Source of the DNA: a virus
Lineage: Duplodnaviria > Heunggongvirae > Uroviricota > Caudoviricetes
Virus record (IMG/VR): IMGVR_UViG_2917413769_000007
Span: 1-13,143 of that record
Strand: one strand, 5' to 3'
Length of the DNA stretch: 13,143 bases
Every line of letters starts with the position of its first letter. Within the stretch, counting starts at the first letter, position 1. The notes under the pieces were generated by a model that saw nothing but the letters and a program-made list of their open reading frames with translations, was not told the origin of the DNA and did not search any database. Positions 7,601 to 9,918 of this stretch are shown one piece after another. The position numbers and the translations under genes were made by a program.

Positions 7601-7695
7601 TCAACCGGCGCCAGACCAGCGCCAGTAACCAAAGAGGAAAGACCAAGTGACAATTTATAACTGTCTGTTCGAGCCGAAGAAATCTGCTATCAAGG

Positions 7696-9918
7696 ATGGT
7701 GCTGTTGCATTGGCAATCAGCATCGAAGCGCCAAATAAAAAAAGTCGCTGAAAGTATCATCATCGGCAAACTCTGGGAGCATTATCCTGCAAATGGCGAC
7801 AACTATTTTAAACCTAAAATCTGGGAAGATTCAGAGGGCCAGCCTCGTCCGGAAGTCGGAAAATTTGATGAGCAATTTGCTCAGGCGAACACATTAGACG
7901 GGGAAAAGTGGATCGCCAACGATTCAGACACCAGTACTTTAAATTTGCCAGCCAACGACGAGATAATCGATCTGACGAAGCTGCCAGCTCGTGAACGCTT
8001 CATTGCCATTCTTATGTTCAGTGATTCCCCCATTGACGGTGTACTGTACTCTCAGGTGCTGGATTATCTTGATAATCTGGAAAATAGCCACGAGCCGTTT
8101 GATGATGACGATCGGCTGAATTCTAATATTCTTCATGCCCTGGAAAATAACGAACCCGTTCGTCACATGCATGTTGAGGGGGTAAACAATCTGATTCAGG
8201 CCATCTTCGCTAAATTTGAAGGCCAGGCACCGGGTAAGGCAGCAATTTCACAGTTCATTAAACGCTGGATGGAAAATCCTCGTAAGCGTGAAGAAATGCG
8301 GCCGGAAAATACCGCATTGAATAATGATGGTGTCAACAATGACAGTAACAAAGTAGCACCACAGCGCGGATATAAGCATTCTTATGCCACACTGGATCAG
8401 GAAATTGCCCTCGCCCTTCTCCCGATTAATTTCACAGAAACAGTATCAGTTCGTGCGCTACGATCTGCTGAACACATCATTGAAGAAGACCGAGAAGATT
8501 TCAAACGCTGGTCAGCGGCACTACGTACGACAGAGCAGATCCTGAAGTATGACCGCCCCAGTGTTTTTGGCGTTATTCAGAATGCACCTGCTAAAGATAC
8601 ATACCATTTCCCTGAGTCACTGCGGCACCATATTGATTCCTGGCTGGCTGAAAATGGTCAGTTCGAGTGTGCTGGTACTGATGCGGAGAGAACCAGCAAA
8701 CTGCTTGCGGCAGAGCGCGGCGAGTACGTCGAAGGTATCAGCGACCCTAACGATCCTAAATGGGTTAAAACAGATTCCCAACCTCAGGTATCAAACCTCG
8801 GCAATGGAATGTTCTCTGTTGATAATCTTCTGCCTGAAACCGCCTCAAAGGAAGGTGAAAAACAGGAAGTGACCGAACAAGGAACTGTTACAGAAGACCA
8901 GGCAACACAGGCCCGAGAAAAGTTGAACAGCATGGGTTACGGCGTTTATGCAACGAACCATGACGAAACTGACCAGCAGGAAGAAAAGCTGAGCGATAAA
9001 GTAAAAACTCTCGTTCAGGATGCGGATCAACTTGTCGAGCGCGTTAAACGTGAAGAGCAGCTCCCGCAGGCATCTGAACTGGTTCAGAGCATCAACGAAA
9101 TGCAGTCTACTGAACGCGATAACCTGGAATTGTGGAAAGAGGTGTTCAAAACAGATGAGCGTTTTACTACTGCGTTCTCTGTGAATGGCGGCGGAACCTC
9201 AATCAATGGCACCTACATGACCATGATCGCTACCCGCGAATTTGGTCCGAAAGGTATCGGCTGGGGTGTGGATATTCTTGAAGAACGCTTTGACGATGGC
9301 GCGCCAATTACTCGCGCAGTCAAAGGGACTGACGGTAACAATACATGGGAGTTTATTCCCGACGGTGTAGGCGGCATCCTGACAGAGAAACACCACGTTA
9401 TCAAAATCAGACTTTGGTACATCCGGAATGGTGCGCGCGGTGAAGAGATTTCATTCGGGTGTACCCCGTATATTTACGGCAGCAAATACGGCCCTATTTG
9501 CGATGGTGAAGCGACAAAAAAATCACTGACTGACGCAACCAAAAAAGCGCTGTCTGCACTTGGTTTCTGCGCTGATATTTTCATGGGCCTGTACGATAAC
9601 CCGGAGTATCGCCAGAAAAATAAAGCAGAATTCGCGCTCAAAAACGCCAGCGAAAACGCCGAGGATGCCGCCCGCGTACGTCAGGAACTGGACGACAAAC
9701 TGACCCGAGTCGCTAACACCATTGCATCTGCTGTATCAGAGCACGAGATCAACAAGGTCTATTCTTCGATTGCTCGCGAAGCGGAGGTGCATCGCAAGGA
9801 TGCAGAGGCGAAAGGTGACACACAGCATGCCCGTTACTTAGGTGGGCGTCTGCGTCGCCTGACAACTATCAAAGATGGACGTATCGCCGAACTGAAAAAA
9901 GTACAGGAGAAAGCATAA
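7696..9918 (+). CDS. Large protein with C-terminal Erf/Rad52-like single-strand annealing domain and ~470-aa unknown N-terminal region
   Basis: 740-codon ORF; residues ~480-640 ([30 protein letters not shown]) match the Erf (GATSSYARKYCLNGLFGIDD) and Rad52 helix motifs from memory; tracked ATG 7696 has no usable SD; see frameshift finding. Confidence 0.8.
   Translation: [740 protein letters not shown]

What the first reader, a model, noticed from the sequence alone, without database searches (positions are those of the whole stretch)
7647..9918. Giant protein with an Erf/Rad52-like annealing domain at the C-terminus and ~470 aa of unrecognisable N-terminal sequence
Erf/Sak/Rad52-type phage annealing proteins are normally about 200-250 aa, with the annealing domain at the N-terminus. 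Here the recognisable core ([65 protein letters not shown]) sits at roughly residues 480-640 of one uninterrupted 740-codon frame. The preceding acidic region has no motif I recognise, and no exonuclease partner gene is present; the next gene is Gp157-like. An open frame of this length is unlikely to be noise, so the N-terminal region may be a new accessory domain (end-processing, anti-nuclease or targeting).
Basis: partly seen in the sequence, partly recalled or inferred. Interest (0 to 1): 0.7.

Follow-up and report, generated by a model that had tools for sequence, protein, structure and literature searches.

The report
RecE-type N-terminus fused to Rad52 annealase
This prophage gene encodes a DNA strand-annealing recombinase of the Rad52 type joined to the non-catalytic N-terminal region of RecE exonuclease, whose function is unknown. 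Databases label this common protein family "hypothetical" or wrongly "exonuclease", and the copy in this window carries a one-base frameshift near its start.

Summary
The long gene is real: a 740-codon ORF at 7696-9918 (+). The window has seven A's at 7737-7743 where all relatives have six, which breaks the 756-757 aa protein at codon 32.

The C-terminal third is a Rad52/Sak-type annealing domain, not Erf. The AlphaFold model has pLDDT 88.8. All ten best PDB matches are the human RAD52 N-terminal domain (E 5e-7 to 7e-6; next hit 0.04). Some family members carry Pfam Rad52_Rad22.

The N-terminal part is recognisable. It is homologous to the non-catalytic N-terminal region of RecE (exonuclease VIII), which newer Pfam releases model as YdfE_N and YdfE_C. 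Its function is unknown and it matches no solved fold.

The same N-terminal module occurs on at least five alternative C-termini:
- the RecE PD-(D/E)XK nuclease
- a DEDD 3'-5' exonuclease
- RecT
- this Rad52-like domain
- a domain of unknown function

The disordered linker holds near-invariant peptide motifs. One of them is also present in E. coli K-12 RecE at residues 464-478.

No exonuclease gene lies in the module. The overlapping downstream gene is a Gp157 / Mu Gam-like end-protection protein, which also follows the standalone 220-250 aa homologues.

Verdict: a new variant of a known kind, of moderate interest.

The parts
7632..7638 (+). Shine-Dalgarno sequence (AAGAGGA) serving the ancestral start codon
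   Evidence: Read directly from the sequence. The block AACCAAAGAGGAAAGACCAA is identical in E. coli prophage homologues and in the nearest relative.
7647..7751 (+). Ancestral 5' end of the gene. GTG start, then 32 conserved codons (VTIYNCLFEPKKSAIKDGAVALAISIEAPNKK), then out of frame to a TGA stop at 7749-7751.
   Evidence: Translation. The same N-terminus is found in P0001 and P0020 (MTIYNCLFEPKKSAIKDGAVALAISIEAPNKKVAES...) and in the E. coli homologues.
7737..7743 (+). A7 homopolymer, the site of a 1-nt insertion that frameshifts the gene (relatives have A6)
   Evidence: DNA alignments with L001 and L002 and with the nearest relative L013.
7696..9918 (+). The 740-codon ORF as it stands in the window. 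Its first 14 codons are out-of-frame sequence; from codon 15 on it matches the family protein.
   Evidence: phrog_2489 matches residues 14-740 with E=0.
7744..8667 (+). Folded RecE-N / YdfE-like region (residues 33-340 in 756-aa numbering). It has a small alpha/beta subdomain and two helical subdomains. Function unknown.
   Evidence: Sequence matches: phrog_607 'exonuclease VII(I)' covers 63-320 vs profile 114-374/883; NCBIfam PRK09709 RecE covers 187-322 vs 234-366/877; tblastn hits RecE of Gifsy-1/2, SPN3UB and HK225. PF27430 YdfE_N is recorded on P0001. AF2 gives pLDDT of about 75-89 in the folded parts. No significant PDB fold match.
8719..8763 (+). Linker motif M1, [15 protein letters not shown], a near-invariant peptide shared with RecE-type and DEDD-type relatives, including E. 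coli K-12 RecE 464-478
   Evidence: Regex census of representative proteins. BLASTP of P0001 against K-12 RecE gives 21/24 identical residues over KLLAA.[16 protein letters not shown]. The region has low pLDDT.
8794..8823 (+). Linker motif M2, [10 protein letters not shown], found in relatives with all four identified C-terminal types
   Evidence: pLDDT is 30-36 in this region.
8932..8952 (+). Linker motif M3, MGYGVYA, seen only in the Rad52-like fusion type and in fragments
9121..9627 (+). Rad52/Sak-type single-strand annealing core (beta-hairpin, helix, three long strands, helix). Invariant basic residues are K608, K609 and K617 in 740-aa numbering.
   Evidence: AF2 pLDDT 88.8. All ten top Foldseek PDB hits are the human RAD52 N-terminal domain, E 5e-7 to 7e-6. 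Profile against PDB sequences: the nine best hits are RAD52, E about 0.05. hhalign against RAD52: E 1.6e-4. PF04098 is recorded on relatives P0123, P0148 and P0176.
9628..9915 (+). C-terminal extension of three long helices, also present in the standalone 240-250 aa homologues. Possible oligomerisation or partner-binding tail.
   Evidence: AF2 helices 182-223, 228-251 and 255-285 of the model, pLDDT 86-93. Alignments A3 and A6.
9918..10472 (+). Sipho_Gp157 / Mu Gam-like end-protection gene. Its start overlaps the stop of the big gene (TGATG).
   Evidence: Pfam PF05565 E 4.7e-35. phrog_253 'Mu Gam-like end protection' E 7e-51. The same pairing is seen in ZF40, BUCT708, PMG1, PseuP_222 and in Yersinia and Serratia prophages.
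7277..7600 (+). Conserved 107-aa gene of unknown function upstream in the same operon
   Evidence: phrog_2479 E 7.6e-47. Syntenic 104-110 aa genes occur in relatives.

Best explanation
The gene encodes the recombinase of a lambdoid prophage's early-left (P_L-type) operon. The protein is a chimera with four parts.

1. Residues about 476-644 (740-aa numbering) form a Rad52/Sak-type annealing core. By homology it should assemble into rings, bind ssDNA in a basic groove (K608, K609, K616, K617) and anneal complementary strands.
2. A helical tail follows, which standalone homologues also have.
3. Residues about 1-340 (756-aa numbering of intact relatives) are the non-catalytic N-terminal module of RecE/YdfE proteins.
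4. A disordered linker of about 130 aa joins the two and carries near-invariant short peptide motifs.

The protein most likely works with the translationally coupled downstream Gp157 (Mu Gam-like) protein, which would protect double-strand ends. ssDNA would come from host nucleases or from replication forks, because the module has no exonuclease of its own.

The N-terminal module and its motifs most likely act as a portable scaffold or recruitment platform rather than as an enzyme.

Shown here: the domain identities, the fusion architecture, the gene neighbourhood and the frameshift. Inferred: ring formation, annealing activity, Gp157 function, the source of ssDNA and the role of the N-terminal module.

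In this window the gene is broken at codon 32 by an extra A, so this copy may be inactive or mis-sequenced.
For: C-terminal domain:
- AF2 pLDDT 88.8.
- The top ten Foldseek PDB hits are all RAD52, at probability 1.0, with a gap of about four orders of magnitude to the next hit.
- An 8-sequence profile puts RAD52 chains in the nine best PDB places, aligned over RAD52 46-159.
- hhalign gives E 1.6e-4 over RAD52 45-176.
- Relatives carry PF04098 or are named Rad52/Rad22 family by their sources.

N-terminal region:
- PHROG, NCBIfam and tblastn matches to the RecE N-terminal region.
- YdfE_N and YdfE_C recorded on relatives.
- The same module occurs on PDDEXK, DEDD, RecT, Rad52-like and unknown C-termini.
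- Invariant residues are mostly W, L, P and A.
- No nuclease fold was found.

Motifs.

Gp157 pairing: it follows both fused and standalone forms. Published work reports SSAP genes associated with Gam-like or orf157-like genes (PMC8093625).

Selection: dN/dS is 0.04 for the Rad52 part, 0.27 for the N-terminal part and 0.12 for the linker.

Against: - No Pfam SSAP model (Rad52_Rad22, ERF, RecT) reaches E<1 on this protein itself.
- Sequence-only support for RAD52 homology is borderline: E about 0.05 and hhalign probability 50%.
- TM-scores to RAD52 are only about 0.5-0.6 when normalised to the target.
- No biochemical data exist for any family member that I could find.
- The N-terminal model has only moderate confidence (pLDDT 68.8, pTM 0.31), so a distant enzymatic fold could be missed.
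- The window copy is frameshifted. The prophage also looks rearranged at its left end, so this copy may not make the full protein.
Confidence: 0.75

Rival explanations
1. The protein is an exonuclease, as databases label it ('exonuclease family protein', 'RecE family exodeoxyribonuclease', PHROG 'exonuclease').
For: phrog_2489 and phrog_7838 are labelled exonuclease. PGAP names WP_487320632.1 'exonuclease family protein'. Source names include 'RecE family exodeoxyribonuclease' and 'exodeoxyribonuclease VIII-like'. There is real homology to RecE.
Against: - The homology to RecE covers only its non-catalytic N-terminal region. The NCBIfam RecE score is 81 bits against a cut-off of 1269.
- No PD-(D/E)XK (DUF3799), DEDD or RNase_T match was found in this protein, nor in the Rad52-type fusion representatives.
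- The position that the nuclease occupies in RecE is taken here by a Rad52 fold.
- RecE nuclease activity resides in residues 564-866 (PMC11611040).
- The label looks like transitive annotation through the shared N-terminus.
Confidence: 0.04
2. The N-terminal module is itself a cryptic DNA-processing enzyme, which would make this a single-chain resection-plus-annealing recombinase and explain the missing exonuclease gene.
For: No exonuclease gene lies in the module. The N-terminal module is under purifying selection (dN/dS 0.27). The N-terminal model is only moderately confident, so a divergent fold could be missed.
Against: - Invariant columns are mostly hydrophobic or structural, with only D139 and R293 charged.
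- The same module is attached to proteins that already have their own nuclease domain.
Confidence: 0.07
3. In this particular window the gene is a decaying pseudogene in a defective prophage and makes no functional protein.
For: - There is a 1-nt insertion in an A-run at codon 32.
- The in-frame ATG at 7696 has no spaced Shine-Dalgarno sequence.
- The left end of the window joins a truncated tail-fibre-assembly gene (564-830, matching Caudo_TAP positions 46-128 of 131) to the replication-side genes. Homology to intact E. coli prophages stops at about position 815.
Against: - The rest of the ORF is intact over 724 codons, with dN/dS 0.15 against the nearest relative. Any lesion is therefore very recent, or it is a homopolymer sequencing error.
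- An A7 tract could allow some slippage.
- This rival concerns only this copy, not what the family is.
Confidence: 0.35
4. The C-terminal domain is an Erf-family annealing protein.
For: Erf, Sak and Rad52 belong to one superfamily with related cores (PMC2896510; PMC11783212).
Against: No ERF Pfam hit at E<1. Relatives hit Rad52_Rad22 (PF04098), not ERF. The motif pattern aligns collinearly with RAD52 45-176.
Confidence: 0.05

Closest known systems
Rad52 / Sak family single-strand annealing proteins (human RAD52 N-terminal domain; lactococcal phage ul36 Sak; Pfam PF04098)
   Same: The predicted fold of the core is the same: beta-hairpin, helix, three-stranded sheet, then a helix carrying the KK pair that aligns with RAD52 K152/R153. 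The motif order is collinear. The setting is a phage recombination module.
   Different: The domain is C-terminal rather than N-terminal, in a protein about three times longer. The Pfam model does not reach threshold on this sequence. It has a long helical tail instead of the RAD52 C-terminal region. No biochemistry exists for this branch.
Standalone homologues in Pseudomonas, Vibrio, Pelagibacter and other phages (PMG1_00054, F116p19, PseuP_222 'RAD52-like annealing protein', HTVC035P gp20 'putative SSAP'; phrog_7838)
   Same: They share 35-42% identity over the whole annealing core and helical tail. In PMG1 and PseuP_222 the gene is followed directly by a Sipho_Gp157 gene, as in this window.
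   Different: They are 220-250 aa with no N-terminal module. Some have a nuclease gene upstream (HTVC035P).
RecE (exonuclease VIII) of the Rac prophage and Gifsy-type RecE-like proteins
   Same: The N-terminal region is homologous, including the near-identical peptide KLLAA.[16 protein letters not shown] (K-12 RecE 457-480). The position in the early-left operon next to xis and int is the same.
   Different: RecE ends in a PD-(D/E)XK 5'-3' exonuclease and is followed by RecT. This protein ends in a Rad52-type annealase and is followed by Gp157. It is not an exonuclease.
YdfE / CP-933P-type prophage proteins (823 aa, N-terminal module plus Rv2179c-like DEDD 3'-5' exonuclease; Pfam YdfE_N, YdfE_C)
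   Same: They share the N-terminal module almost end to end (query 12-357 against 44-390 of P0264) and motif M1.
   Different: The C-terminal domain is a DEDD exonuclease, and neither an SSAP nor a Gp157 gene is annotated next to it (mEp460).
Two-component phage recombinases (lambda Exo/Beta/Gam, RecET)
   Same: Same genomic niche and presumed role. The module includes an annealase and an end-protection (Gam-like) function.
   Different: There is no dedicated exonuclease gene. The accessory module that RecE carries on the nuclease is here carried on the annealase.

Membership tests
Rad52/Sak SSAP superfamily | Core fold: beta-hairpin plus three-stranded antiparallel sheet packed against a helix | tested here: met
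   AF2 model with pLDDT 88.8 and matching secondary-structure order. The ten best Foldseek PDB hits are all the RAD52 N-terminal domain, E 5e-7 to 7e-6, probability 1.0.
Rad52/Sak SSAP superfamily | Conserved basic residues on the DNA-binding helix (RAD52 K152/R153) and the FG..GW motif | tested here: met
   The profile and hhalign alignments place K616/K617 opposite RAD52 K152/R153 and FGPKGIGWG opposite FGYNGWA. K617, F516, G517, P518, G520 and G522 are invariant in 50 sequences.
Rad52/Sak SSAP superfamily | Match to Pfam Rad52_Rad22 (PF04098) at the curated threshold | tested here: not met
   No hit at E<1 for this protein. PF04098 is recorded only on some relatives (P0123, P0148, P0176).
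Rad52/Sak SSAP superfamily | Ring oligomerisation and ATP-independent ssDNA annealing | not testable with these tools
   Needs EM or biochemistry. No multimer prediction was available.
Erf family (PF04404) | Match to the ERF profile | tested here: not met
   No ERF hit at E<1.
RecT/Redbeta family (PF03837) | Match to the RecT profile | tested here: not met
   No RecT hit for this protein. One relative of the N-terminal module (P0323) ends in RecT instead.
RecE / exodeoxyribonuclease VIII (NCBIfam PRK09709) | C-terminal PD-(D/E)XK nuclease domain (DUF3799-like) | tested here: not met
   No DUF3799 or PDDEXK hit. None was found in the Rad52-type fusion representatives by jackhmmer profiles.
RecE / exodeoxyribonuclease VIII (NCBIfam PRK09709) | Full-length equivalog score | tested here: not met
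   81.3 bits against a cut-off of 1269. Only positions 234-366 of 877 matched.
RecE / exodeoxyribonuclease VIII (NCBIfam PRK09709) | Homologous N-terminal region | tested here: met
   phrog_607 E 1e-35. tblastn hits Gifsy-1/2, SPN3UB and HK225 RecE. A 24-aa motif is 88% identical to K-12 RecE.
YdfE_N domain proteins (Pfam PF27430) | Match to the YdfE_N profile | tested here: inconclusive
   The model is absent from the local Pfam copy. A precomputed hit is recorded for the 97%-identical P0001 and for all listed full-length homologues. YdfE_C (PF27432) is recorded only on more distant relatives.
Two-component exonuclease/SSAP recombinase (SynExo type) | Adjacent 5'-3' exonuclease partner gene | tested here: not met
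   Neighbouring ORFs 7277-7600, 9918-10472, 10438-10656 and 10676-10903 have no nuclease hit. The synteny is the same in five relatives.

The most novel reading that the evidence does not exclude
The RecE/YdfE N-terminal region, together with its near-invariant linker peptides, is a portable recruitment platform. The peptides are G[ED][YF]VxGISDPxDPKW, present in K-12 RecE at 464-478, and NLGxGxFS[IV][DE]. The platform would dock onto a conserved host or phage hub protein, or onto DNA ends. Evolution has attached it interchangeably to resection enzymes (PD-(D/E)XK, DEDD) and to annealases (Rad52-like, RecT). If so, the long-unexplained N-terminal two-thirds of RecE has a function independent of nuclease catalysis, and that function can be dissected through these motifs and through this natural annealase fusion.
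Probability: 0.4. Interest if true: 0.7.

Novelty: new variant of a known kind. Interest (0 to 1): 0.55.

Why it matters
- **Annotation.** A very common enterobacterial prophage protein, seen on thousands of Salmonella contigs, is currently labelled hypothetical, 'exonuclease', 'RecE family exodeoxyribonuclease' or 'transcription termination factor'. The evidence here says it is a Rad52-type annealase. The PHROG label 'exonuclease' on the standalone annealases also looks like an error passed on through the shared N-terminus.
- **The RecE question.** The N-terminal region of RecE has had no assigned function, although full-length RecE is what makes linear-linear recombineering efficient. The same module sits on an annealase and on two unrelated nucleases, with a 15-24 aa peptide conserved far better than its surroundings. 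That gives a concrete, testable handle on what the region does.
- **Tools.** An SSAP that carries this module and pairs with a Gam-like protein could be a useful recombineering reagent.

Tried and rejected
- **Pfam on the whole protein:** only noise at E>0.2.
- **Sequence search against PDB with the whole protein:** nothing.
- **megablast against phages:** only a 300-nt flank matched.
- **Literature searches.** The first RecE N-terminus query was swamped by 'receptor' papers. The whole-word query found only the review statement that the function is unknown. The YdfE search found no functional study.
- **Single-linkage clustering of the last 300 residues of representatives:** merged everything because of fragments. 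I replaced it with domain-specific jackhmmer profiles.
- **Programmed frameshifting at the A-run:** considered and rejected. The shift needed is +1, the tract is A7, and all relatives have A6 in frame.
- **Gp157 against PDB sequences:** nothing. Its Gam-like label rests on the PHROG annotation only.
- **The NCBI name 'transcription termination factor'** on Yersinia homologues: not explained.
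Full report
**Observation**

The window has a 740-codon ORF at 7696-9918 on the + strand. The GTG at 7647 is preceded by AAGAGGA at 7632-7638. It opens a different frame that reads VTIYNCLFEPKKSAIKDGAVALAISIEAPNKKSR and stops at 7749-7751.

Two E. coli prophage homologues (757 aa, about 80% identical) and the nearest relative found (P0001, 756 aa, 97% identical, Logan contig L013) start at the position equivalent to 7647 and read straight through. The only difference is an A-run: A7 in the window (7737-7743) against A6 in all three. 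The window copy therefore carries a 1-nt insertion at codon 32.

I cannot tell a homopolymer sequencing error from a recent mutation. Downstream of the lesion the gene is intact. dN/dS against L013 is 0.15 overall: 0.27 for the N-terminal region, 0.12 for the linker and 0.04 for the Rad52 part. The in-frame ATG at 7696 has no properly spaced ribosome-binding site.

**The C-terminal third is a Rad52-type annealase**

- Pfam gives nothing at E<1, and a sequence search of PDB gives nothing.
- tblastn shows that residues about 460-706 match standalone phage proteins of 220-250 aa. These come from Pseudomonas (PMG1, F116, MPK9, PseuP_222), Vibrio, Xanthomonas, Sulfitobacter, Pelagibacter and other phages.
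- A profile of eight such sequences places human RAD52 chains in the nine best PDB positions, at E about 0.05, aligned over RAD52 46-159.
- A profile search of the 5.8-billion-protein set found 1136 relatives. Some carry Pfam Rad52_Rad22 or are named Rad52/Rad22 family by their sources.
- AlphaFold2 on window residues 455-740 with a 50-sequence alignment gave mean pLDDT 88.8. The secondary-structure order is beta-hairpin, helix, three long strands, helix, then three long C-terminal helices.
- The ten best Foldseek PDB matches are all the human RAD52 N-terminal domain (E 5e-7 to 7e-6, probability 1.0, target-normalised TM 0.47-0.61). The next hit has E 0.04.
- hhalign of the family alignment against RAD52 1-212 gives E 1.6e-4 over RAD52 45-176. 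It puts K616/K617 opposite K152/R153.

It is the Rad52/Sak branch, not Erf.

**The N-terminal part is the RecE/YdfE N-terminal region**

- PHROGs matches the whole protein to phrog_2489 (E=0). It matches residues 63-320 to the N-terminal part of phrog_607, 'exonuclease VII(I)'.
- NCBIfam's RecE equivalog matches residues 187-322, at 81 bits against a cut-off of 1269.
- tblastn hits the N-terminal halves of RecE-like proteins of Gifsy-1/2, SPN3UB, HK225 and CP-933P-type phages.
- Precomputed Pfam annotation on P0001 is PF27430 = YdfE_N. More distant relatives also carry PF27432 = YdfE_C. Both models are newer than the local Pfam copy.

**Census of the N-terminal module**

I searched residues 15-454 against 1.84 billion representative proteins. 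Only 158 clusters scored E<=1e-3. I classified the representatives of 450 aa or more with Pfam and with domain profiles. The module is joined to alternative C-termini:

| C-terminal domain | Approximate clusters | Notes |
|---|---|---|
| Rad52-like annealase | about 23 | 667-814 aa |
| PD-(D/E)XK DUF3799 nuclease | about 19 | RecE proper |
| Rv2179c-like DEDD 3'-5' exonuclease | about 12 | the 823-aa E. coli YdfE/CP-933P type, whose 90%-identity cluster has 23,183 member sequences |
| RecT | 1 | P0323 |
| Domain of unknown function | several | phrog_26058; Enterobacter, about 633 aa |

There are also intermediate forms of the annealase with shorter N-terminal extensions, 299-459 aa.

**Structure of the N-terminal region**

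AlphaFold2 on P0001 1-475 gave mean pLDDT 68.8. The model has:
- an alpha/beta subdomain at 1-90;
- helical subdomains at about 100-215 and 245-340, with pLDDT about 75-89;
- a largely disordered stretch at 345-475.

**Linker motifs**

The low-confidence linker contains peptides that are conserved far better than their surroundings:
- M1, G[ED][YF]VxGISDPxDPKW (window 8719-8763), occurs in the Rad52-like, PDDEXK and DEDD types.
- M2, NLGxGxFS[IV][DE] (window 8794-8823), occurs in all four identified types.
- M3, [LM]GYGVYA (window 8932-8952), occurs only in the Rad52-like type and in fragments.

E. coli K-12 Rac RecE has M1 at 464-478. Over 24 residues ([24 protein letters not shown]) it is 88% identical to this family, while the rest of the N-terminal regions align at about 22%. 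This pattern is typical of docking peptides. The partner is unknown.

**Genomic context**

The gene lies in a lambdoid early-left arrangement:
- cI-like repressor, 5599-6009
- a 107-aa conserved gene, 7277-7600
- the big gene
- Gp157, 9918-10472, overlapping the big gene's stop as TGATG
- small genes
- DUF4224 excisionase-like gene, 10869-11093
- integrase, 11094-12113

Gp157 matches phrog_253, 'Mu Gam-like end protection', at E 7e-51.

The same order is found in ZF40, in 'Stenotrophomonas' phages BUCT708/709, and in E. coli, Yersinia and Serratia prophages. The standalone annealases of PMG1 and PseuP_222 are also followed directly by a Gp157 gene. The Enterobacter type with the other C-terminus is not. 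Gp157 therefore travels with the Rad52-like domain, not with the N-terminal module.

The association of SSAP genes with Mu gam-like or orf157-like genes has been reported for Firmicutes phages (PMC8093625). No exonuclease gene is in the module.

**Mechanism**

Most likely the Rad52-like domain forms rings that anneal complementary ssDNA, and Gp157 protects double-strand ends. ssDNA would come from host nucleases or replication forks. The N-terminal module and its peptides would tether the annealase to a partner or to DNA ends, as they presumably do for RecE-type nucleases.

Only the domain identities, architecture and synteny are shown here. The activities are inferred.

**Rivals**

- The database label 'exonuclease' rests only on the shared non-catalytic N-terminus, and I reject it.
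- A cryptic enzymatic N-terminus is not excluded but has no support.
- The window copy may be non-functional because of the frameshift. The left end of the window also looks rearranged: a truncated tail-fibre-assembly gene at 564-830 abuts the replication-side genes, and homology to intact E. coli prophages ends near 815.

**Novelty**

The components are known kinds, a Rad52-type SSAP and the RecE N-terminal region, and the family is abundant. I found no description of this fusion as an annealase, of the interchangeable use of the RecE N-terminal module, or of the conserved peptides. My literature access is limited. I rate it a new variant of a known kind, with interest 0.55.

Noticed in passing
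window 12230-12318 (+): Rfam sRNA-Xcc1 (RF02221) match at 68.3 bits (gathering score 53), E 6e-11. It lies between the integrase gene and an AntA-like anti-repressor gene (12358 to the window end).
   Followed up: no
window 564-830 (-) and about 815-830: An N-terminally truncated tail-fibre-assembly gene (Caudo_TAP positions 46-128 of 131) sits directly beside the replication-side genes. Similarity to intact E. coli prophages stops at about 815. This suggests a deletion or rearrangement junction and a defective prophage.
   Followed up: partly
window 6010-7277, hairpin at 6433-6406 (-): A region of about 1.2 kb between the cI-like repressor and the 107-aa gene has only ORFs without any family match. 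It also has a strong terminator-like hairpin (10-bp stem followed by a T-run) on the minus strand.
   Followed up: no
window 823-1071 (-): An 82-aa ORF with a weak match to DNA polymerase III theta subunit (PF06440, E 1e-4, below the curated cut-off). It may be a phage HOT-like theta homologue.
   Followed up: no
L011 3875-6346 (Escherichia phage mEp460_ev081); P0264: The 823-aa YdfE/CP-933P-type protein carries the same N-terminal module plus a DEDD 3'-5' exonuclease. It is followed directly by excisionase and integrase genes, with no SSAP annotated. P0264 also has an internal repeat of the 270-345 segment.
   Followed up: partly
P0393, P0394, P0398 and others (Yersinia full-length homologues): NCBI names several Yersinia homologues of this fusion protein 'transcription termination factor'. 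I found no basis for that name.
   Followed up: no
phrog_7838 and phrog_2489; P0521 (S. bongori, 814 aa): Standalone and fused Rad52-like annealases are labelled 'exonuclease' or 'RecE family exodeoxyribonuclease' although they have no nuclease domain. This is probably annotation passed on through the shared RecE N-terminal region.
   Followed up: partly
L016 4001-5860 (Enterobacter, P0302); phrog_26058: A fifth architecture: the N-terminal module (YdfE_N plus YdfE_C) joined to a C-terminal domain of about 250 aa with no family match. It is named 'exodeoxyribonuclease VIII' by its sources and has no Gp157 gene downstream.
   Followed up: partly
L012 (Stenotrophomonas phages BUCT708/709): Phages reported from Stenotrophomonas carry an early region syntenic with, and up to 92% identical in DNA to, this enterobacterial prophage. 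That is an unexpected host assignment.
   Followed up: no
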